Positions 40,312 to 50,018 of a stretch of 64,000 nucleotides of DNA are shown here, one piece after another. The position numbers were made by a program, and so were the translations under genes. Under the pieces are notes generated by a model that saw nothing but the letters and a program-made list of their open reading frames with translations, ran no database searches and was not told where the DNA came from. Within the stretch, counting starts at the first letter, position 1. Each line of letters opens with the position of its first letter. This DNA is from an uncultured Bacteroidales bacterium (GTDB lineage: Bacteria > Bacteroidota > Bacteroidia > Bacteroidales > Paludibacteraceae), in contig CAMEKM010000004.1 of NCBI GenBank assembly GCA_945921355.1, positions 6,305 to 70,304 on the forward strand, given 5' to 3'.

Positions 40312-40420
40312 CGTTTAACGTTTTAATGAGTTAGTGTTTAGTGATTCGCTCACTCGTTAATTCCTTCATTCGATCATTCGATAATTCGCTCATTCGTTAA
40401 CTCCTTCACTCGGTCATTAG
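40312..40420 (+). repeat. octamer-periodic tract (TCNTTMAN)n, left copy R1 of the direct repeat bracketing the island
   Basis: AATGAGTTAGTGTTTAGTGATTCGCTCACTCGTTAATTCC... aligns with 50090-50210. Confidence 0.8.
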
Positions 40421-40468
40421 TCGGTGATGAGGAGGTGGTTGATTGGTAGCAAGAAGGTTGTAAAGTTA

Positions 40469-41740
40469 TCAAATATCATTATTCTCACTTAACAAACGTT
40501 TCAGCGAATCTATATCTGGCAAGGCTCGACGTAATTCCTCTGGCATCTCCGCTGATGTATGATACTTAGCCACTCCCATCGGACTATCATAACGTTGGAT
40601 AACATACTCTACATAACTCTTGTCCATATCTTGGCACAAAACGATGCCAATACTCGGATTCTCGTTTGGCTTACGAACCTCATCATCCAATATTTGCAGA
40701 TAAGTTTGCAACTGTCCCAAATAAATCGGCTTAAACTCTCCCAGTTTCAATTCCACAGCGACTAAACACATCAACTCGCGATTATAGAACAATAAATCCA
40801 CAAAATAATCCTTACCAAATTTCTCCAAGTGATATTGATTGCCTACAAATGTAAAATCCTTACCAAACATCATAATGAAGTTCTTCACATTTTGCACAAT
40901 CGCATTCTCCACAACTCTCTCATCCATATCAGCCGCATCACGTACCCCTAACTCTTCCACATTCATATAATCCAACAGATACTCATCCTTAAACATCTCA
41001 ATTGCTTTTAACGCTTGAACACGTTTGGGAAAGGTCGCTAAGAAGTTATTAGGCATCTTAGCTTGATGATGAAACAAATCTTGCTTTAAACAATCGCGTA
41101 ATTTGTATTTATCCCACTTATTCAGTGCTGCTTGGCGAATATAAAAGAGACGTTCCTCTTGTGTCTTGGTTTGAGTCAATATTTCAGTATGATGAGTAAA
41201 ACTAATAGATAAAAAAGCATGAGCGATTTCTACATCAAACATTTCACTGGAAAAATCAAGACGCGTAATAGATGTCAGCAATTTAGTCGCCATCGGCGAC
41301 TCGTTTTCGCTAGCCGTTGGCTGGAAAATTTCTTCTACATTCAATTTTGCAGCCGGCGGCTGCAAAATTGACATCTCACTTATTTTTGCAGCCGCTGGCT
41401 GCAAAAATGGAGTATATTCATTCTCATCAACCAATAGTCGTTGATGTACATGATTGCACCAAACTTCATAGAACTGACGCATATAACGAATACTACGTTC
41501 GCTAAATCCCTTGAGACCTGGCAATTCTTTTCGCAGTTGCTCGCTAATAGCCTTAATAGCACCACTTCCCCACTTCTGAGTTCGTGACTCTTCAGATATA
41601 TATCGACCTACGGAATAATACAAAGCCAAAACATCAGAATTCACATTGCGAATTGTACGAGCTTGACTCTGCAAAATTGCAGTTTTGATAGTTGTTACAG
41701 CCCTTGATATAGAGAGCAAAGTATTATCGTTTTCCATCAT
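40469..41740 (-). CDS. YhcG/DUF1016 family PD-(D/E)xK nuclease-like protein
   Basis: DUF1016 N-terminal pattern (SERSIRYMRQFY) and a C-terminal nuclease-like core (VDLLFYNREL..VAVELK). An internal 3x repeat lies at 41308-41407. Confidence 0.8.
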   Translation of the reverse strand: MMENDNTLLSISRAVTTIKTAILQSQARTIRNVNSDVLALYYSVGRYISEESRTQKWGSGAIKAISEQLRKELPGLKGFSERSIRYMRQFYEVWCNHVHQRLLVDENEYTPFLQPAAAKISEMSILQPPAAKLNVEEIFQPTASENESPMATKLLTSITRLDFSSEMFDVEIAHAFLSISFTHHTEILTQTKTQEERLFYIRQAALNKWDKYKLRDCLKQDLFHHQAKMPNNFLATFPKRVQALKAIEMFKDEYLLDYMNVEELGVRDAADMDERVVENAIVQNVKNFIMMFGKDFTFVGNQYHLEKFGKDYFVDLLFYNRELMCLVAVELKLGEFKPIYLGQLQTYLQILDDEVRKPNENPSIGIVLCQDMDKSYVEYVIQRYDSPMGVAKYHTSAEMPEELRRALPDIDSLKRLLSENNDI

Positions 41741-41797: not shown

Positions 41798-41809
41798 TTA
41801 CTCTCTCGC

Positions 41810-42052
41810 TCACCAGGCGGTAATGACACCATGCTGAGTGGTGTGTGCAAAATTTGCATATACCATATTTTTATCTAGTTCTCCCTCTGCAAAAAAATTG
41901 CTTATATGCCTTCCAATAGCCGTTCTATCTCGTTCAAACAATTGAGCCATTTGTTCCTGCGTAATCCACACAGTTTCCCCATCAAGCCGGACATCAAGTT
42001 GAGTTATTCCGTCTTGCGTTTGATAGATTACTATTTCTCCTTTATCTTCCAT
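41810..42052 (-). pseudogene. RhuM-family virulence/Fic-associated protein, N-terminal fragment only
   Basis: The 80 aa (IVIYQTQDGITQLDVRLDGETVWITQEQMAQLF.RDRTAIGRHI) match a RhuM N-terminus. The ORF stops where the DUF1016 promoter module begins. Confidence 0.6.
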
Positions 42053-42127
42053 TATTTCTTCGTTAAATCATTCACTTTCTTCTCTCGCTTCTCTCTCGGT
42101 GATGAGTCGGTAAAGCTTTATCAATTA

Positions 42128-42218
42128 TTTTACTAGTTGTTTTACTAGTTATTTACCAGTTTATATACTAGTTAAGTCTTTGCTTTACTAGTTATTTTAC
42201 TAGTCATTTTCACTAATT
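42128..42218. repeat. iteron-like array: 7 copies of TTTACTAGT(T) with ~12-bp phasing
   Basis: ACTAGT cores (or one-mismatch variants) start at 42132, 42144, 42155, 42167, 42187, 42199 and 42212. Confidence 0.85.
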
Positions 42219-42351
42219 CATTTATTTTTTTCCTCCGACTCACTTACGAGAGACTTACGGGACAGATACGAGAGGATGAGTCTGCATGTGATCCCAATGT
42301 GTATTACCATTTGCAATTTTGTACATTACGAAATTCACAAGCGAATCTTTA

Positions 42352-43668
42352 CTATAAATCTAACATCATATCTTTTGTAAAGGATAGCATGTATTCATTA
42401 AACTCATCATTTGTTATAAGATGTTCCATCATCTTCCAGAGCATTTCATCTGAAGTGCGACTAAAAGTATTATTGTTGTATACAGAACCTTGTGCTGCAA
42501 TGATAAAATTATATTTACTTAAATGCCTCACTCTCAATTCTGCTTTATTTGAGGTACTTACAATTTTTCCCCTAATTAATGCATGACCATCATCATACTC
42601 TTGACGCGTAATCAATCTATTGCAGAAACGATTACGTTTAAATATCGCATATTCTTCAGAGATATGTTCTAAAATACCATCTTTATACAAATTTCGTTGT
42701 ACTGCGCATTGAGTTTTATACAATCCAGTTGGACTATCTGGCATACATTCAACATATACGTATTGATTATAATATCGAGCAGTAGATGAATACACAACAA
42801 TTCTTTTTATAATAATTTCGTCGCTCCCCATTAAATATTTATTTCCTTTAAGATGTTTGAATTTATCAATGTTGCATGCACTGCCACATCTAAACCACCA
42901 TATAGGGTGAGTCGAATTATGCAACCCTTCTATGGACTGAAAATATAATGGCTGTTCTAATAAAGTAGTTAATGCTCGCTTGATATCCTTTTCTCTTGTA
43001 TATTCTTTCAATCCTCTAAGCCCAGGAAAGGCCTTTCCTATTCGAACATTAAACAATGTTGTGGAATCTTGTACGGCTTTGGGAATAATAGATGGTTTAT
43101 AAAAGTATTTAATTTTTAAATCCTCTACAAAAGAATGAAATTTCTCATACACAGAAGACTGAGGAGTACGATGTTTTCCATTCTTTCTTATTTCCTCAAT
43201 TACTTCCAGAATTGGCTGAGCAAGTTCACATTTAGAGCTATTAAATTGATAGACACGCTTATGATTAATATCGAATGGCAAGTCATTTATGTTCCAACTG
43301 CCTTGATGTGCAACAAGAATGATGTATCTATTTCCAACGGCGGACATCGCATACCCTAATTCCAATAACACATTAGGATTTGTAATCTCTTTATTTTGAG
43401 AACTACCATTCCCTATAAATTTATTAAAAGCTATAATAGGTGTTAGATCACAAATAAAGACATCACACGAATCTATTTTTTGTAAAATGCTGTGATCTAT
43501 TGCAGGCATTCCTGATTCTCCTAACGTAGAATGATCAATCACAACTTCATATCCATAAGATGATAGAAGTTCTTTTTTAGCCGACTCCAAAGCCGACTCT
43601 ATCAATTGTTTCTCTTTGTTCTGCGTATCAGATTGCCAAGAAAAGAATATTTTAAATTGTTTTTTCAT
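42352..43668 (-). CDS. TIR/nucleoside-2-deoxyribosyltransferase-like N-terminal module fused to an unassigned ~290-aa C-terminal region
   Basis: KIFFSWQSD, CDVFICDLTP, NPNVLLELGYA and LPFD motifs lie in residues 1-150. The remainder has no recognisable motif. Confidence 0.6.
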   Translation of the reverse strand: MKKQFKIFFSWQSDTQNKEKQLIESALESAKKELLSSYGYEVVIDHSTLGESGMPAIDHSILQKIDSCDVFICDLTPIIAFNKFIGNGSSQNKEITNPNVLLELGYAMSAVGNRYIILVAHQGSWNINDLPFDINHKRVYQFNSSKCELAQPILEVIEEIRKNGKHRTPQSSVYEKFHSFVEDLKIKYFYKPSIIPKAVQDSTTLFNVRIGKAFPGLRGLKEYTREKDIKRALTTLLEQPLYFQSIEGLHNSTHPIWWFRCGSACNIDKFKHLKGNKYLMGSDEIIIKRIVVYSSTARYYNQYVYVECMPDSPTGLYKTQCAVQRNLYKDGILEHISEEYAIFKRNRFCNRLITRQEYDDGHALIRGKIVSTSNKAELRVRHLSKYNFIIAAQGSVYNNNTFSRTSDEMLWKMMEHLITNDEFNEYMLSFTKDMMLDL

Positions 43669-43674
43669 ACAAGC

Positions 43675-44667
43675 CTATATGCGATTGTTTTTGACAAGGC
43701 GCCAATAATACTTACCAATAGGAGTTAAACGGCAAGACTTAGATTCCATAGCAGCAAAATACATAAAAGGAGCGCCAACTGGTTCGATGAAACCTATTTT
43801 TTGCAATTCTTGCAAGCACTTAAATTTCTTTATGTTTTCCGCATTAGCATATGGTTCTATGTATTTATGCTCTACTGTTGGGCTGTTCGTATCCTCATAT
43901 GAAGGATCCAAGGCATACTCCTTGTCCTGAGTTTCAAATAAAGCAGTAAGTTGATGAATCGTTTCATTTGGAACTCTAGGTGTCACATTTCGAATGGCTA
44001 CAAATTCCGACACATTCGTCTTAAATATAGGCCTTTGATCCCAAGCCCCTAACGAGCGATCAATATAAGCATATATTCCTCCCATTGTGATATTACCACT
44101 GAAGTCGGCAGCTTCTCCACTTAGAGCCGTTGTTAACAACTCTGTAAATATACCATGGCCACCCATTTCTACAGCTGATTCATCATCACGACATGCAGTA
44201 AGAATGGAAACTCCTGATGCCAATACGCTTGTCACAGCATCCACATCATTGGCCCCGAGTAAACCTGAGTGACAACAATCTAAAATCAAAACTTTGTGCT
44301 TAGCCTTTGAGTGATTTGCAATATCCATCAGATAATCCATCTTTATCCCTAATTTGGAATAATCTTTATTTACAGTTGCTATGTCAACATCTTGGGGGAA
44401 TACTAATTGTCCTCCATTGGCATCAACATATCCATGACCAGAAAAATAGAATAATGCTATATCTGCATCATCATGAAAGAGGTGTTCTATATATCCCTTT
44501 GCGTCTTCACTACGTTGCAAATCCGGCAATAGCATTATATCAAAGTTCTTTGAATTATCTTCGTTTCGTTCTAATACCGAAGCCAGCGCATTGATATCTT
44601 CAATGCATCCATGCAATTCACTACCGGCTGGGTAGTTATTTATACCTATTAAAAGTGCTCTTCTCAT
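43675..44667 (-). CDS. caspase-like (peptidase C14) protease with a ~100-aa C-terminal extension
   Basis: ALLIGINNY, FYFSGHGY (His78) and LILDCCHSG (Cys131/132) motifs. Confidence 0.85.
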   Translation of the reverse strand: MRRALLIGINNYPAGSELHGCIEDINALASVLERNEDNSKNFDIMLLPDLQRSEDAKGYIEHLFHDDADIALFYFSGHGYVDANGGQLVFPQDVDIATVNKDYSKLGIKMDYLMDIANHSKAKHKVLILDCCHSGLLGANDVDAVTSVLASGVSILTACRDDESAVEMGGHGIFTELLTTALSGEAADFSGNITMGGIYAYIDRSLGAWDQRPIFKTNVSEFVAIRNVTPRVPNETIHQLTALFETQDKEYALDPSYEDTNSPTVEHKYIEPYANAENIKKFKCLQELQKIGFIEPVGAPFMYFAAMESKSCRLTPIGKYYWRLVKNNRI

Positions 44668-44669
44668 GA

Positions 44670-45074
44670 TTATTTTGCCAAATTACGTATTGCTTGAACG
44701 ATAGATTCTGTATTCCATTTCACAATATCATCTGCTCTTTCTTGAATAACACGCGAGACATGCTCTTGTCCCCACGGAATGACACCTAAAACAGGGATAT
44801 TATTTTCAATAGCCGTATCAAGTTCCCATTGCATCCACTCGCTATACGATGCATATACTCCGGCAAGACCGATTACTACATCAGCCTTTTCAATTAAAGG
44901 CCTTACACATGCATGTAAATAATATACATTATCCGAATTAAATTTATTTTCTGGAGTTACTTCCAAAAAATCTACCTTAAAATAGCCACGCTCCTCCAGC
45001 AGTGCCCTAAGACTCTCTAAATCATCCAAATGATCCCATGAATGACTAATGAAAAGATTATAAGTTTTTGTCAT
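44670..45074 (-). CDS. TIR-like domain protein (DUF1863/ThsB type)
   Basis: 134 aa with NLFISHSWDH (beta1) and SEWMQWELDTAI (conserved Glu84). Confidence 0.75.
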   Translation of the reverse strand: MTKTYNLFISHSWDHLDDLESLRALLEERGYFKVDFLEVTPENKFNSDNVYYLHACVRPLIEKADVVIGLAGVYASYSEWMQWELDTAIENNIPVLGVIPWGQEHVSRVIQERADDIVKWNTESIVQAIRNLAK

Positions 45075-45184
45075 ATAAATTAAGTTTAAATGTTGATTTT
45101 GTTTTAATTATTATCCACCCCCGAATCTCTCCCATAAGCGAGTCGTGTTTGTCTCTCGCTCTTCTCTCGGTCATCTCTCGGTGG

Positions 45185-46378
45185 TTACTTATTTGCTTTC
45201 ATCAGTCGTTTTGTTTCACGCAGCTCTTTTTGCAGGAGTTCCATGCGTTCCTTCAGTTGCTCTTGCGTCGGAAGCATGTCCTTGATGCGTACATTATTAT
45301 ATGTTGCCACTCCCATCGGAGTGCTGATGCCACGGAACGACCATTGTACATCGGCTTTATTCATATCCGAACAAATGAGCAAGCCTATCGTCGGATTATC
45401 ATCCTCTGCTTTCAACAAGTCATCTACTGCATTGACGTAAAAATTCAGTTTTCCGGCAAACTCCGGTTCAAACGCTTTGGCTTTCAGTTCGCACACTATA
45501 TAGCAACGCAAACGGATATGATAGAAAAGCAAATCAATCTTGCGTGTAGTATCTCCGGCAATCAGTTCTTTCTGTCTTCCTATAAACGCAAAGCCGGTTC
45601 CGAGTTCCAACAAAAGATCCGTTACACTTTTGCTCAATGCTTCTTCTAACTCCTGCTCATCGTAAATCTCATGCTTCACGGTTGCAAAGCCAAAGTCATA
45701 ATTCTCCTTGAGTACTTCTTGCGCCAATTTGCTCTGCAATGCGGGCATGTGCTCGGCGAAGTTATTGAGAATCTTTCCTTGATGCTCATATAGATTAGCT
45801 TTGATGCAGTTCACCAGCGCCGCACGACTCATACCCTGCTCTATCGTCTTTCCTACATAGAAGAGCGCTTCATCAACTGATTTGCATTTGGAAATAATAG
45901 CAATATGATGTCCCCATGGAACGTATGCAAAAGAAGACGGAAATTCTCCAACGGGTTGCTGGAGTTTTTGAGAATCAATTTCTGCAACAGTTTGTTGCAG
46001 TTTTGAACTTAAAATTTCTCCAACAACTTGTTGGAGTTTTGTATCCTCCTGATAATAAAACAGATACCACTGTTTCATATACCATAGATTCGTAGTCGAG
46101 AAACCTTCTGCATTCGGGAACTCACGCTGGAGATCAAGGCTCACTTGCTCCACCACACCTGCGCCCCAACGCTCTTCGGCTTTCTTTTGCACTAAATCGC
46201 GTCCCAGTTCCCAATTGAAGAGCAACTTCTCTGCATTTACACGCACAGAAGCCTTCACTTGCGCCGAACGATACCGATGTTTCAACTCGGCAATCCATTC
46301 CGCGTAATCCGTATCAATGCGTATGTCGTGAGATTTCACGATACGCGGTTGCTTTGATATTTCATTTTCTTCTATCAT
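45185..46378 (-). CDS. YhcG/DUF1016 family PD-(D/E)xK nuclease-like protein
   Basis: STTNLWYMKQWY, VPWGHH and IDLLFYHIRLRCYIVCELK motifs. An internal 3x palindromic repeat lies at 45941-46040. Confidence 0.8.
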   Translation of the reverse strand: MIEENEISKQPRIVKSHDIRIDTDYAEWIAELKHRYRSAQVKASVRVNAEKLLFNWELGRDLVQKKAEERWGAGVVEQVSLDLQREFPNAEGFSTTNLWYMKQWYLFYYQEDTKLQQVVGEILSSKLQQTVAEIDSQKLQQPVGEFPSSFAYVPWGHHIAIISKCKSVDEALFYVGKTIEQGMSRAALVNCIKANLYEHQGKILNNFAEHMPALQSKLAQEVLKENYDFGFATVKHEIYDEQELEEALSKSVTDLLLELGTGFAFIGRQKELIAGDTTRKIDLLFYHIRLRCYIVCELKAKAFEPEFAGKLNFYVNAVDDLLKAEDDNPTIGLLICSDMNKADVQWSFRGISTPMGVATYNNVRIKDMLPTQEQLKERMELLQKELRETKRLMKANK

Positions 46379-46467
46379 TTTCTAAATTTGTCTCCCGGTC
46401 ATCTCCCGCTCATCGGTCGGTGAATATTTCTAAATGTTTACCTCTATCCTGACCAAGACAACAGAAG

Positions 46468-48087: not shown

Positions 48088-48146
48088 ATTAATTTCTCGC
48101 TCTTCCCTCGGTCATCTCCCGCTCATCGGTTGGTGATGAGTCGGTA
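48088..48146 (+). repeat. island junction repeat J5 (longest copy)
   Basis: TCTCGCTCTTCCCTCGGTCATCTCCCGCTCATCGGTTGGTGATGAGTCGGTAAA. Partial copies lie at 40405-40440, 42085-42116, 45150-45186 and 46390-46425. Confidence 0.8.
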
Positions 48147-48158
48147 AATAAAGTGTTT

Positions 48159-48650
48159 CTATTCCTTATCTACAATTATTGCTTCCACAAATTGTAATTG
48201 CAATAACGCTTTGTCCGTATGAAACGATACTTGATTAAACAGCACATGCGTTTTCAGTTGCACTACGGCAGCTTCTGCACTCAACTCCGCATTCTCATAC
48301 AAGCTGATGGTGGCATACAAGTTATCATTCGCTACTGGACCAAGCACAATATCATAATCATGCAACGGAGCAAAGCGACGATTGGCAACCACAAAATCCA
48401 ACCACTCCTTGGTCGCTCCGTTGTACTCCATTATCTTCAATACACCATCATTCAATAGATTATCATCCACCTCATATACAGACACCACTGCATTGCCTTC
48501 TCCAGCACGGTCGCGGCGAATACGCGCCCAACGGGCTGCCTGGTCAAAATCAACTGTGGTATAAAAGCCCTTGCCATAATCGGTATTGGGCCTACCTTGG
48601 CGAAGACTGGGTTTCCTGATCGTTACTGTTGAACCATGATATAGTTTCAT
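48159..48650 (-). CDS. DUF3990 domain-containing protein
   Basis: The pattern MKLYHGS....DYGKGFYTT..FDQAARWA is typical of DUF3990. Confidence 0.7.
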   Translation of the reverse strand: MKLYHGSTVTIRKPSLRQGRPNTDYGKGFYTTVDFDQAARWARIRRDRAGEGNAVVSVYEVDDNLLNDGVLKIMEYNGATKEWLDFVVANRRFAPLHDYDIVLGPVANDNLYATISLYENAELSAEAAVVQLKTHVLFNQVSFHTDKALLQLQFVEAIIVDKE

Positions 48651-48697
48651 ATTGCTTAATCTATTTTGTGACTATTCGAGGATTACTTTTTTTTATT

Positions 48698-49337
48698 AAC
48701 ATAAATACGCTGCGCTAGCGCTTGCTACAAAAATATACAAAAATCTTGTTATTCTATTTTGTTTTTGCATATAAGAAGCAGTTACTGCTTAAGTATGCAA
48801 AACAAAATTATTTTTGGTTGATATAATTAGGAACAATTTTGTATTTCAAAGGCACTTCTCCAAAGTTAATCAATATACCTAGTGGTAAGTTGGTTGCTTT
48901 TAGATAGTTTAATAGTTGTGCCGTATGCTCAGTCCTTAATTTTTCAACAGATTTGAGTTCTACAACTATATTGTCATAGCATACTAAATCAGCTTTGTAT
49001 GTTCGATCAAGTAAATGTCCTTTATAAGTGATTGTAATTAATTTCTCTGTTTCAAAAGGAATTCCACGTAACCCTAATTCAACATTCAACGCATCATGGT
49101 ACACCAACTCCAAAAAGCCTCGTCCTAAATGGTTCTGTACTTCCATAGCAGCACCAATGATATCAAAAACTTCTTGCTGGAATTGTATGTCGTTAGATTT
49201 GTTCATATCAGTTTCATTATTACATCTTTTGTTCTTGCTCACCAATGCAGTGTACTGCATTCAGTTGAGCAAGAGCAAAAAAAGTTTCTTGATTTTTAAT
49301 TATTTTTATAGGCATCAGAGATGCCGTATTTTTGTTT
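48698..49337 (+). mobile_element. MITE-like element copy D carrying a GxxExxY gene as cargo
   Basis: The left part (48698-48810) and right part (49215-49337) match the two halves of the empty copy at 49354-49597. The cargo sits between hairpin 1 and hairpin 2. Confidence 0.75.
48808..49206 (-). CDS. GxxExxY protein (PD-(D/E)xK-like; 23S rRNA IVS-protein-type family)
   Basis: IIGAAMEVQNHLGRGFLELVYHDAL and VVELK...LLNYLKATNLPLGILINF motifs. The start is set at MNKSND, because the longer ORF reads through the element's hairpin. Confidence 0.85.
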   Translation of the reverse strand: MNKSNDIQFQQEVFDIIGAAMEVQNHLGRGFLELVYHDALNVELGLRGIPFETEKLITITYKGHLLDRTYKADLVCYDNIVVELKSVEKLRTEHTAQLLNYLKATNLPLGILINFGEVPLKYKIVPNYINQK

Positions 49338-49353
49338 AAGTATTATTCTTTCT

Positions 49354-49597
49354 AACATAAATACGCTGCGCTGGCGCTTGCTACAAAAATATACAAAAAT
49401 CTTGTTATTCTATTTTGTTTTTGCACATAAGAAGCAGTATACTGCTTAAGTATGCAAAACAAAATTATTTTTTCCAATATTTCTTTTGTTCTTGCTCACC
49501 AATGCAACTTGGTTGCATTCATTTGAGCAAAGACAAAAGGATTATCTCCATGATTTTTAATTATTTATATAGGGCTTTAAAGCCCGTATTTTTGTTT
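49354..49597 (+). repeat. ~244-bp structured MITE-like element, copy E (empty)
   Basis: Same architecture as copies A and B, but with compensatory changes in all three stems. Confidence 0.85.
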
Positions 49598-49601
49598 CAA
49601 A

Positions 49602-50018
49602 TTACTTTTTTCTATTGTTAATAAATATATCTATATCGTGCAAAATCATGTCCTTACCTTGTGTATGAAGCATATCAAAGCCTTTTACCAGATACTCATC
49701 GACCCCATAACGACGGAAGAGAGCGTATGCCTCTAGTGAGGTCATATCATGTTTTTTTGCATAATTTTCAGTACAAAAAGTTAAAAATACAATCACATTA
49801 TTCGATACGATATGCCCGCTAGAGAACCTGCTTTGTTCCAATAAGCGATAAAGTGATTCTGTATCCAGATACCACCACTTGGCATTTTCATCGTACAACT
49901 TTGCATAAAAGGGCGAGTCATAAATATAGCCCAACGCAGCTCTCACGGGGATATGCTTGCGCTGCGAGACAAGCAACGCCAATTGTGATATTTTTAATGG
50001 AATAATAGATGCACTCAT
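49602..50018 (-). CDS. DUF3791 domain-containing protein
   Basis: 138 aa. This is a family-level guess based on size, sequence pattern and pairing with DUF3990. Confidence 0.55.
   Translation of the reverse strand: MSASIIPLKISQLALLVSQRKHIPVRAALGYIYDSPFYAKLYDENAKWWYLDTESLYRLLEQSRFSSGHIVSNNVIVFLTFCTENYAKKHDMTSLEAYALFRRYGVDEYLVKGFDMLHTQGKDMILHDIDIFINNRKK

What the first reader, a model, noticed from the sequence alone, without database searches (positions are those of the whole stretch)
42352..45074. Compact TIR-like / caspase-like protease / second TIR-like-plus-unknown operon: candidate Thoeris-related immune system with an undescribed third component
Three minus-strand genes are packed with 2-nt and 6-nt gaps (45074-44670, 44667-43675, 43668-42352). 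By eye they are AT-richer than the housekeeping DNA. They sit among defence-type genes: two YhcG/DUF1016 nucleases, Fic and a RhuM remnant. Gene 1 (134 aa) has a DUF1863/ThsB-type TIR-like signature, NLFISHSWDH and SEWMQWELDTAI, with candidate catalytic Glu84. Gene 2 (330 aa) is a C14 caspase-like protease with ALLIGINNY, His78 in FYFSGHGY and Cys131/132 in LILDCCHSG. Gene 3 (438 aa) begins with a different TIR/nucleoside-deoxyribosyltransferase-like module (KIFFSWQSD, CDVFICDLTP, NPNVLLELGYA, LPFD), followed by about 290 aa I cannot assign. To my knowledge, TIR plus caspase-like protease pairs have been reported as a Thoeris variant, in which a TIR-made nucleotide signal activates the protease. 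I cannot place a three-gene form with two unrelated TIR-like modules and a large unknown domain in any described system.
Basis: partly seen in the sequence, partly recalled or inferred. Interest (0 to 1): 0.9.

Follow-up and report, generated by a model that had tools for sequence, protein, structure and literature searches.

The report
Type IV Thoeris plus TIR-X companion
The first two genes are a known anti-phage system (type IV Thoeris: a TIR signal-maker plus a caspase-like protease), and the third is an uncharacterised TIR enzyme fused to a widespread, unnamed domain that usually works alone but has repeatedly been attached behind this system.

Summary
The three minus-strand ORFs are exactly as described. 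Genes 1 and 2 are a type IV Thoeris system (ThsB TIR plus ThsE caspase-like protease). Gene 1 is 45% identical to the experimentally validated E. coli 328 TIR. Gene 2 is 39-41% identical over its full length, C-terminal domain included, to the caspases beside such TIRs in E. coli. This pair is already known.

Gene 3 is the new part. It has an effector-type TIR (CAP12/PycTIR, TIR-STING-like) fused to a confidently modelled ~235-aa domain, here called "X". X has no Pfam, PDB or BFVD match.

X is widespread: 597 cluster representatives. It always sits at the C-terminus, behind at least 43 different N-terminal modules, including TIR, SEFIR, DUF4062, NTase, kinase, caspase/CHAT and EAD11.

About 80% of gene-3 homologues stand alone beside unrelated neighbours. 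One lineage lost the TIR-caspase pair and kept gene 3 intact.

Even so, TIR-caspase-gene 3 recurs in three separate gene-3 clades. In the window's clade it moves as one 2.9-kb cassette.

Best reading: a known Thoeris system with a co-transcribed, probably autonomous NADase sensor-effector. A dual-effector Thoeris is not excluded.

The parts
45075..45196 (-). 5' leader of the cassette. It includes tandem 11-nt-period repeats (ACCGAGAGATG ACCGAGAGAAG AGCGAGAGA, read on the minus strand) at 45149-45196.
   Evidence: the repeat finder families D1/D3. The pattern CGAGAGANNNGCGAGAGA has 4 hits against 0.09 expected. The leader is conserved upstream of the TIR gene in all other trio contexts examined (L066/67, L068, L069). 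The 99.4% nucleotide identity to L066/L067 starts at 45177, inside this repeat.
44670..45074 (-). Gene 1, thsB: a 134-aa ThsB-type TIR protein, the predicted phage sensor and signal synthase. Candidate catalytic residue Glu84.
   Evidence: Pfam ThsB_TIR 3.4e-10. PADLOC ThsB 5.6e-15, full length. 45% identity, E=7e-37, to the validated E. coli 328 type IV Thoeris TIR; Glu84 aligns with the Glu of its WIDAEI motif (sequence taken from Yirmiya et al. Table S1).
43675..44667 (-). Gene 2, thsE: a 330-aa caspase-like protease. The C14 domain covers about residues 1-206, with His78 and Cys132. The C-terminal domain (about 207-330) is the one proposed in the literature to bind N7-cADPR.
   Evidence: Peptidase_C14 1.3e-17. 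Metacaspase and MALT1 hits align HG and DCCHSG with their catalytic dyad. H78, C131 and C132 are invariant in 26 homologues. 39-41% identity over the full length to E. coli caspases adjacent to EcTIR-type TIRs.
43174..43668 (-). Gene 3, N-terminal part (residues 1-165): an effector-type TIR / nucleoside-deoxyribosyltransferase-like domain, with Glu103 invariant in NVLLELGYA.
   Evidence: PF10137 CAP12-PCTIR_TIR matches 30 of 30 family members. Foldseek on the full model finds TIR-STING 7un8 (3.6e-6), SPARTA TIR-APAZ 8spo, NDT enzymes and SARM1. E103 is invariant. There is no match to PADLOC ThsB models.
42355..43071 (-). Gene 3, C-terminal 'X' domain (about residues 200-438): beta-rich, unannotated, a predicted sensor or regulatory module. 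Conserved motifs: FPGxRG, PIWWFR, YYxxYVYVE, EEY, DDG, ELRxRxL.
   Evidence: AlphaFold2 model with pLDDT 88 and pTM 0.82. No PDB match (best E 0.04) and no BFVD match. No Pfam hit. phmmer finds 597 representatives, always with X at the C-terminus of proteins 229-611 aa long. The N-terminal partners are diverse.
42244..42351 (-). Conserved 3' trailer of the cassette, ending ...CCCGTAAGTCTCTCGTAAGTGAG. TCTCTCG is the inverse of the leader's CGAGAGA.
   Evidence: The 99.4% identity to L066/L067 ends at 42244. The trailer motif is conserved in L066, L068 and L069 despite different downstream genes.

Best explanation
The 2.9-kb unit at 42244-45196 is one mobile defence cassette made of two modules.

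Module 1 (genes 1 and 2) is a type IV Thoeris system. On phage infection the ThsB TIR converts NAD+ into the signal N7-cADPR. The signal binds the C-terminal domain of the ThsE caspase-like protease. The protease then cleaves cellular proteins after arginine and aborts the infection. This mechanism is inferred from homology to the characterised systems.

Module 2 (gene 3) is most likely a self-contained sensor-effector. Its C-terminal X domain senses an infection cue and licenses the N-terminal CAP12/TIR-STING-type TIR to oligomerise and deplete NAD+. It is co-transcribed with the Thoeris pair as a second, complementary layer. This resembles the Pycsar plus type IV Thoeris composite operon Liu-DS6. 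Gene 3 is not an obligate Thoeris subunit.

What is shown: the domain identities, the homology to validated proteins, the cassette behaviour, the mostly solo distribution of gene 3 and the modularity of X. What is inferred: the NADase activity, the sensing role of X and the independence of the two modules.
For: Type IV Thoeris identity: together with the papers read.

Gene 3 autonomy:
- Of 81 gene-3 loci with at least 1.5 kb of upstream sequence, 67 lack any caspase or type IV TIR.
- The upstream neighbours are heterogeneous: Schlafen-HATPase-HTH, PIN, AIPR, T5orf172, DUF3732, IS66, HNH, a methylase and sugar-pathway genes.
- In L058-L060 only a 48-aa caspase remnant is left, yet gene 3 is intact. 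That copy nests inside the trio clade (87% identical to L068 and L069, dN/dS 0.12).
- Type IV Thoeris is sufficient as two genes. The 63%-identical caspase relative P0126 is in a two-gene locus. None of about 22 distinct viral type IV loci has a gene 3 or X-domain protein.

Effector-type TIR: structural matches are to NAD-depleting effector TIRs, and there is no ThsB model match.

X as a portable sensor or regulator: it is always C-terminal, behind at least 43 N-terminal module families that are typical effectors.

Precedents: Swarozyc, a TIR-like NADase with a C-terminal auxiliary domain that binds the phage portal; and Liu-DS6, independent yet synergistic systems in one operon.

Single cassette: the gaps are 2 and 6 nt. 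No junction repeat lies inside the trio, although one sits at every other gene junction of the island. The same leader and trailer occur in at least 5 genomic contexts.
Against: The association with type IV Thoeris is not a one-off. TIR-caspase-gene 3 occurs in three separate gene-3 clades. In L107 all three proteins are deeply diverged (34%, 56% and about 46% identity) and the caspase stop overlaps the gene-3 start (TGATG). In L124 gene 3 follows two ThsB-ThsE pairs.

A further four loci have a different TIR_2 protein directly upstream of gene 3.

This recurrence, the conserved downstream position and the tight coupling all hint at a functional link beyond co-transcription.

X has many invariant charged and aromatic residues across very different architectures. 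That fits a small-molecule pocket or an active site better than a fast-evolving surface for binding a phage protein.

No activity of gene 3 has been shown anywhere.
Confidence: 0.55

Rival explanations
1. Dual-effector type IV Thoeris. Gene 3 is a second effector. Its X domain binds the ThsB-made nucleotide (N7-cADPR or a co-product) and switches on the TIR NADase, so one signal triggers both proteolysis and NAD+ depletion.
For: The trio recurs in three gene-3 clades with tight or overlapping caspase/gene-3 junctions. About 10 of 58 distinct gene-3 loci have a TIR gene directly upstream. There is a precedent for a TIR-containing Thoeris effector, type IX ThsJ 'TIR and SLOG'. X has strongly conserved polar and aromatic residues, and its only faint fold hits are jelly-roll, cupin or cNMP-binding-like ligand binders (not significant). 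Other type IV loci also carry extra downstream genes, for example 3-TM proteins of 174-247 aa.
Against: Most gene-3 and X-domain proteins have no TIR or other signal synthase next to them. Profile-profile comparison finds no similarity between X and the caspase C-terminal domain that is thought to bind N7-cADPR (probability 0.3%). Gene 3 survives intact after loss of ThsB and ThsE. X is also fused to signal-making-type enzymes such as NTase and GGDEF/Cas10 palm, which is odd for a dedicated signal receptor.
Confidence: 0.2
2. Gene 3 is an additional ThsB-like sensor and signal generator. X recognises other phages, and the TIR makes a signal that feeds the ThsE caspase. This would broaden the phage range, as multiple ThsB genes do in other Thoeris loci.
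For: In related gut-phage contigs the position directly behind the caspase is held by a second, short TIR. That TIR is a bona fide ThsB (PADLOC ThsB 1e-41) and belongs to a TIR cluster that Yirmiya et al. list as caspase-associated. L124 has ThsB-ThsE-ThsB'-ThsB-ThsE-gene 3. Multi-ThsB islands are documented.
Against: The gene 3 TIR matches effector TIR families (CAP12/PycTIR, TIR-STING, SPARTA) and no ThsB model. Most family members have no effector partner nearby, so a pure signal generator would be useless in those loci. Gene-3 motifs are absent from the part of the Yirmiya Thoeris TIR table that is held as text.
Confidence: 0.12
3. Gene 3 is wired to the Thoeris pair at the protein level. 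It could be a substrate activated by ThsE cleavage in the low-confidence linker (residues about 165-200, containing the conserved HR motif). Alternatively it could be a guard that fires when phage anti-Thoeris factors such as sponges block the pathway.
For: ThsE is an Arg-specific promiscuous protease. The linker between the TIR and X has low pLDDT and a conserved Arg. Phage sponges against type IV Thoeris exist. Tight operonic coupling is seen in three clades.
Against: No direct evidence. The linker Arg is equally conserved in solo homologues. The mostly solo distribution argues against dependence on ThsE.
Confidence: 0.06

Closest known systems
Type IV Thoeris (ThsB TIR + ThsE caspase-like protease; Rousset et al., bioRxiv 10.1101/2024.10.24.620036 / Science 2025)
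   Same: Genes 1 and 2 form a short ThsB-type TIR followed by a roughly 325-aa protein with a caspase domain and a C-terminal domain, in the same order and with tight spacing. The catalytic Glu, His and Cys are present. Gene 1 is 45% identical to the validated EcTIR. Gene 2 is 39-41% identical over its full length to E. coli ThsE homologues. The locus lies in a defence island.
   Different: A third co-transcribed gene (gene 3) follows the caspase. The host is a Bacteroidales-like gut bacterium, and the locus is embedded in a polysaccharide-biosynthesis region. Signal chemistry is untested here. The window TIR shows no BLAST similarity to the Pseudomonas PsTIR, consistent with the several TIR clusters that pair with caspases.
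Liu-DS6 composite operon (Pycsar + type IV Thoeris + fifth gene; NAR 2026, PMC13069673)
   Same: A type IV Thoeris pair is co-operonic with another defence module and with an uncharacterised gene directly downstream of the caspase. The modules act independently but synergise, and they are co-transferred as one operon.
   Different: There the partner is a cyclase plus a TM effector, and the extra gene was dispensable. Here the partner is a single TIR-X protein. Homology between the Liu-DS6 fifth gene and gene 3 could not be tested because no sequence was available.
Swarozyc (DUF4062 TIR-like NADase + C-terminal auxiliary domain; bioRxiv 10.64898/2026.05.01.722283)
   Same: The architecture and proposed logic match: an N-terminal TIR-like NADase, a C-terminal auxiliary sensor domain, a single-gene abortive-infection system, horizontal mobility and varied neighbours. 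Some X-domain proteins carry DUF4062 at the N-terminus.
   Different: The gene 3 TIR is PF10137-type, not DUF4062. I found no evidence that X is the portal-binding AUX domain. Plasmid DUF4062 proteins, including one from Acinetobacter, matched only the N-terminal part of a DUF4062-X query.
CBASS/Pycsar TIR effectors (Cap12 TIR-SAVED, TIR-STING, PycTIR) and type IX Thoeris ThsJ (TIR-SLOG)
   Same: Same TIR subfamily by Pfam and by structure search. Same effector-plus-regulatory-domain layout.
   Different: X is not SAVED, STING, cNMP-binding or SLOG by any search run here. No CD-NTase or cyclase is nearby. Most homologues have no signal synthase as a neighbour.

Membership tests
Type IV Thoeris | Short ThsB/TIR protein with a catalytic glutamate | tested here: met
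   ThsB_TIR 3.4e-10. PADLOC ThsB 5.6e-15 over residues 1-131. Glu84 aligns with the Glu of EcTIR.
Type IV Thoeris | TIR homologous to an experimentally validated type IV TIR | tested here: met
   45% identity, E=7e-37, over 128 aa to the E. coli 328 TIR. No similarity to PsTIR, which belongs to a different TIR cluster.
Type IV Thoeris | Adjacent caspase-like (C14) protease with a His-Cys dyad | tested here: met
   Peptidase_C14 1.3e-17. The dyad aligns to metacaspases. H78 and C132 are invariant in 26 homologues.
Type IV Thoeris | ThsE-specific C-terminal domain (the putative N7-cADPR-binding domain) | tested here: met
   Alignment to E. coli ThsE homologues runs to the last residue (residues 1-330 against 1-321, 39-41% identity). 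The domain is conserved in the family.
Type IV Thoeris | TIR-then-caspase two-gene operon in a defence context | tested here: met
   2-nt gap. Neighbours match PDC-S02, PDC-S04/SoFic and PDC-S05.
Type IV Thoeris | TIR makes N7-cADPR, which activates Arg-specific proteolysis; phage defence | not testable with these tools
   Needs LC-MS or a reporter assay, plus plaque assays.
CBASS/Pycsar TIR effector (Cap12 / TIR-STING / PycTIR), considered for gene 3 | PF10137-type TIR domain | tested here: met
   25.5 bits against a cutoff of 24.7 for the window protein. 30 of 30 family members match, best 2.2e-6. Foldseek finds 7un8 at 3.6e-6.
CBASS/Pycsar TIR effector (Cap12 / TIR-STING / PycTIR), considered for gene 3 | Fused SAVED, STING or cNMP-binding sensor domain | tested here: not met
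   No Pfam hit on residues 166-438 in any of 30 members. No significant PDB fold match for the confident C-terminal model.
CBASS/Pycsar TIR effector (Cap12 / TIR-STING / PycTIR), considered for gene 3 | Adjacent CD-NTase or pyrimidine cyclase | tested here: not met
   The neighbours in the window are ThsE, a RhuM remnant, YhcG and Fic. The neighbours of 58 distinct homologues include no cyclase family.
ThsB (signal-generating Thoeris TIR), considered for gene 3 | Match to ThsB profile models | tested here: not met
   PADLOC returns only weak CBASS 'Effector TIR' models (E 0.003-0.004) and no ThsB model. By contrast the short TIR_2 third genes in L164 and L124 hit ThsB at 1e-41 and 3e-46.
Type IX Thoeris effector ThsJ (TIR-SLOG), considered for gene 3 | SLOG sensor domain | tested here: not met
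   No SLOG/LOG-type Pfam or structural match.
Swarozyc, considered for gene 3 | DUF4062 TIR-like domain plus a homologous AUX domain | tested here: inconclusive
   Gene 3 has PF10137, not PF13271. Five X-domain proteins do carry DUF4062. No KpSwz sequence or structure was available to compare AUX with X. Plasmid DUF4062 proteins matched only the N-terminal half of a DUF4062-X query.

The most novel reading that the evidence does not exclude
The X domain is a new receptor for a TIR-derived nucleotide (N7-cADPR or a co-product). [quoted passage not shown] More broadly, X would define a large, undescribed family of signal- or infection-sensing switch domains that control TIR, SEFIR, DUF4062, kinase, NTase and caspase/CHAT effectors across bacteria.
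Probability: 0.2. Interest if true: 0.8.

Novelty: new variant of a known kind. Interest (0 to 1): 0.6.

Why it matters
The TIR-caspase core adds nothing new. It does show that type IV Thoeris is common in gut Bacteroidales and travels as a small cassette inside polysaccharide loci.

The value is in gene 3.

(1) It exposes a large, unannotated domain family, X. X has 597 representative clusters, a confident model with no match among solved or predicted viral structures, and at least 43 N-terminal partner modules. These features give it the hallmarks of a general switch or sensor of bacterial immune effectors.

(2) Gene 3 has been captured repeatedly behind type IV Thoeris. That offers a tractable test of whether defence modules packed in one operon cross-talk, through a shared signal, dual effectors or a guard function, or merely co-travel.

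Either outcome is testable with a 2.9-kb construct and three point mutants.

Tried and rejected
- X is not detectably related to the caspase C-terminal sensor domain. hhalign of the two family alignments gives probability 0.3%.
- X has no known fold. Foldseek against the PDB (best E 0.04, TM 0.16) and BFVD (best E 0.09) found nothing. phmmer and hmmsearch against PDB sequences found nothing. Pfam found nothing on 30 members.
- Is X the Swarozyc AUX domain? No sequence was available. tblastn of a DUF4062-X protein against plasmids gave mostly N-terminal-only hits. This stays inconclusive and leans towards no.
- Is gene 3 strictly co-conserved with TIR-caspase? Rejected.
- Is gene 3 only a chance neighbour in one lineage? 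Also rejected. The trio is found in three gene-3 clades.
- The exact junction-repeat pattern CGAGAGANNNVCGAGAGA was not found in the fetched loci. Looser inspection showed degenerate versions in the leaders.
- Sigma-70 promoter and terminator scans gave nothing above shuffled expectation inside the cassette. Bacteroidetes-type promoters are not covered by the tool, and my by-eye search for TAnnTTTG upstream of gene 3 was not convincing.
- An exact look-up of the window's gene-3 protein found no record, so near-identical cluster members were used instead.
- The organism was not determined. Relatives come from Prevotella, Xylanibacter and other Bacteroidales MAGs and from gut metagenomes.
Full report
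**1. Observation**

The window contains the three minus-strand ORFs at the stated coordinates: 45074-44670 (134 aa), 44667-43675 (330 aa) and 43668-42352 (438 aa). The gaps between them are 2 and 6 nt, and every quoted motif is present.

The region is AT-richer than the flanks, 32-39% GC against 45-49%.

- Gene 1: ThsB_TIR 3.4e-10, PADLOC ThsB 5.6e-15.
- Gene 2: Peptidase_C14 1.3e-17, PADLOC caspase 3.5e-23.
- Gene 3: CAP12/Pycsar-effector TIR (PF10137, 1.4e-5) on residues 29-130 only. Nothing matches the remaining ~300 residues.

The neighbours are defence candidates: YhcG matches PDC-S02, Fic matches PDC-S04/SoFic, and the RhuM remnant matches PDC-S05. Further upstream lie PDC-M13/M10-type small genes. 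The whole island sits inside a polysaccharide-biosynthesis locus.

**2. Genes 1 and 2 are a type IV Thoeris system**

The literature describes a two-gene TIR plus caspase-like protease system. The TIR makes N7-cADPR, which activates an Arg-specific, promiscuous protease. The proteins are now called ThsB and ThsE.

Table S1 of Yirmiya et al. gives the TIR sequence of the validated E. coli 328 system. Gene 1 is 45% identical to it (E=7e-37), and Glu84 aligns with its catalytic-motif Glu.

I used that TIR to reach E. coli loci. The adjacent 321-aa caspases are 39-41% identical to gene 2 from the first residue to the last. That span includes the C-terminal domain that Rousset et al. propose binds N7-cADPR.

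His78 and Cys131/132 are invariant in 26 homologues. They align with the metacaspase dyad, and Cys132 falls at the catalytic-Cys position.

Every sequence-level defining feature is met. The signal chemistry cannot be tested here.

**3. Gene 3: anatomy**

An AlphaFold2 model of the full protein (pLDDT 81) matches NAD-consuming effector TIRs through its N-terminal domain. The matches are TIR-STING 7un8 (3.6e-6), SPARTA TIR-APAZ, nucleoside deoxyribosyltransferases and SARM1.

Glu103 in NVLLELGYA is invariant in 30 homologues. Gene 3 matches no PADLOC ThsB model.

The C-terminal part, modelled alone, is confident (pLDDT 88, pTM 0.82). It has no significant match in the PDB (best E 0.04) or in BFVD. 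It has no Pfam match in any of 30 members and no PDB sequence match. I call this domain X.

**4. X is a widespread portable module**

phmmer of residues 166-438 against 1.84 billion representatives gave 597 hits at E<=1e-3, of which 475 were at E<=1e-10. In every listed hit the domain is at the C-terminus of a protein 229-611 aa long.

Among 134 of these proteins with at least 60 aa upstream of X, the N-termini fall into 43 BLAST clusters.

Pfam identifies the following N-terminal modules: TIR_2, TIR, CAP12-type TIR, SEFIR, DUF4062 (a TIR-like NADase), NTase-conflict, protein kinases, Peptidase_C14, CHAT, GGDEF/Cas10-palm, UCH and EAD11. Many N-termini remain unassigned.

A constant C-terminal domain behind swappable effector-type heads is the usual signature of a sensor or switch domain in single-polypeptide immune proteins. 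Swarozyc is the nearest worked example: a DUF4062 NADase with an auxiliary domain that binds the phage portal. I could not show that X is that auxiliary domain.

**5. Is gene 3 part of the Thoeris system? Evidence for linkage**

In the window's clade the three genes behave as one cassette.
- The same trio, with 6-9 nt between caspase and gene 3, occurs in at least five different contexts: the window, L066/67, L068, L069-71 and L076-79.
- The 99.4% nucleotide identity to L066/67 spans exactly 42244-45177.
- All contexts share a 5' leader and a 3' trailer.
- 11-nt-period CGAGAGA repeats mark every other gene junction of the island, but none lies inside the trio.
- All three genes are under purifying selection, dN/dS 0.03-0.13.

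HMM searches of 108 gene-3 loci found the trio in two further, separate gene-3 clades.
- L107 has a TIR 34% identical to gene 1, a caspase 56% identical to gene 2 and a gene 3 about 46% identical. The caspase stop and the gene-3 start overlap (TGATG).
- L124 has the order ThsB-ThsE-ThsB'(TIR_2)-ThsB-ThsE-gene 3.

Four more loci have a different TIR_2 protein abutting gene 3.

**6. Evidence for autonomy**

- Of 81 loci with enough upstream sequence, 67 have no caspase or type IV TIR.
- Upstream neighbours are otherwise heterogeneous. They include Schlafen-HATPase-HTH (7 loci), PIN, AIPR, T5orf172, a DUF3732 ATPase, IS66, HNH, a methylase and sugar-pathway enzymes.
- In L058-60 only the last 48 codons of the caspase survive, next to a full RhuM gene. 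Gene 3 is nevertheless intact, nests within the trio clade and shows dN/dS 0.12 to its sisters.
- From the caspase side, the nearest non-clade relative (63% identity) is in a plain two-gene system. The E. coli systems are two-gene. None of about 22 distinct type IV loci on viral contigs has a gene 3 or X-domain protein.
- hhalign finds no similarity between X and the ThsE C-terminal domain.

**7. Other third genes**

Type IV loci do recruit other genes behind the caspase.

One type is a short TIR_2 protein of 180-186 aa (L164-L179; also 178 aa in L124). It is a strong ThsB match (1e-41 and 3e-46). It belongs to a TIR cluster that Yirmiya et al. already list as caspase-associated.

Another type is a predicted 3-TM protein of 174-247 aa (TM segments judged by eye).

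The published Liu-DS6 operon combines Pycsar, type IV Thoeris and an uncharacterised fifth gene. Its two systems act independently but synergise.

So the slot behind thsE accretes extra parts, and gene 3 is one occupant that has not been described. Gene-3 motifs are absent from the held part of the Yirmiya table. No paper in the library that I searched mentions such a component.

**8. Verdict**

Genes 1 and 2 are a known system, confidence about 0.9.

For gene 3 the best-supported reading is a self-sufficient TIR-NADase sensor-effector that is co-transcribed and co-mobilised with type IV Thoeris as a second layer. Overall confidence in this reading is 0.55.

The recurrence in three clades keeps alive three rival readings:
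- a signal-sharing dual-effector system (0.2);
- an extra ThsB-like signal generator (0.12);
- protein-level wiring to ThsE (0.06).

The finding is therefore a new variant of a known kind. Its interest lies in the recurrent TIR-X add-on and in the large, unannotated X-domain family, not in the TIR-caspase pair itself.

Noticed in passing
window 40403-40439, 41802-41824, 42078-42114, 45149-45196, 46388-46435, 48090-48148: Tandem 11-nt-period repeats (CCGAGAGA-type on the transcribed minus strand) sit at every junction between defence genes of the 40-48 kb island, but not inside the TIR-caspase-gene 3 trio. The trio cassette ends with the inverse motif (GTCTCTCGTAAGTGAG, around 42244-42260). They look like cassette boundaries or recombination sites, or shared 5' leaders. 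The pattern has 4 hits against 0.09 expected.
   Followed up: partly
window 42117-42209 and 40344-40418: There are two further short tandem arrays in intergenic DNA. One is TTTTACTAGTT-like units with an 11-12 nt period, between gene 3 and the RhuM remnant. The other is 8-nt-period ATTCGNTN units upstream of YhcG copy 1 (families D4 and D2). Function unknown.
   Followed up: no
window 42355-43071 (X domain); proteins P0384-P0529: The C-terminal domain of gene 3 defines a large unannotated family: 597 representatives at 50% clustering. It is fused behind at least 43 different N-terminal modules, including TIR, SEFIR, DUF4062, NTase-conflict, kinases, caspase, CHAT, GGDEF and EAD11. The largest N-terminal cluster (32 proteins of about 340 aa) has no Pfam match.
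   Followed up: partly
L058:7845-7988 (also L059, L060): A 48-codon remnant of the caspase 3' end (73% identical to gene 2 residues 283-330) lies between a full-length RhuM gene and an intact gene-3 homologue. This records deletion of ThsB and ThsE with retention of gene 3. The retained stretch might carry gene 3's own promoter.
   Followed up: partly
L069 vs L068 vs window (genes 2 and 3): The identities are incongruent. The L069 caspase is closer to the window's (88%) than to L068's (81%). Its gene 3 is 94% identical to L068's but only 76% to the window's. This implies recombination between the Thoeris module and gene 3 within the cassette.
   Followed up: no
L124:558-5302: A TIR-rich island with the order ThsB-ThsE, a 178-aa ThsB-like TIR_2, a second ThsB-ThsE pair, then a gene-3 homologue. 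The two caspases are only 54% identical to each other.
   Followed up: partly
L164-L179 (IMG/VR gut viral contigs), e.g. L164:2883-4826: A three-gene ThsB-ThsE-ThsB' arrangement on phage contigs. The downstream 180-186-aa TIR_2 protein matches PADLOC ThsB at 1e-41. It belongs to a TIR cluster listed as caspase-associated in Yirmiya et al. Table S1.
   Followed up: partly
L181:4987-5511, L183, L184:4987-5517, L185:2199-2723, L190:5006-5749: Type IV Thoeris loci on viral contigs carry a conserved protein of 174-247 aa directly behind the caspase. It has about three hydrophobic, membrane-spanning-like segments and no Pfam or PADLOC match. It may be a second, membrane-acting effector or an accessory protein.
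   Followed up: partly
window 48687-48815 and 49343-49472: A direct repeat of about 130 nt (96 nt at 94% identity plus 33 nt at 100%) lies upstream of two small genes in the PDC-M13/M10 region (48159-48650, 48808-49260, 49602-50018). It looks like a duplicated promoter or leader region.
   Followed up: no
window 45941-46040 and 41338-41409: Both YhcG/DUF1016 genes contain in-frame tandem repeats with a 36-39 nt period. These encode reiterated ...KLQQ.V.E... or ...LQPAAAK... peptides in the region between the DUF1016_N and YhcG_C domains.
   Followed up: no
L004:6572-7996, L010:1427-2812, L002, L098-L100, L110: In one gene-3 clade the gene is preceded, with a 5-nt gap or a small overlap, by a Schlafen AlbA_2 - HATPase_c_4 - HTH protein. 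This is seen in 7 distinct loci and may be another recurrent partner of TIR-X proteins.
   Followed up: partly
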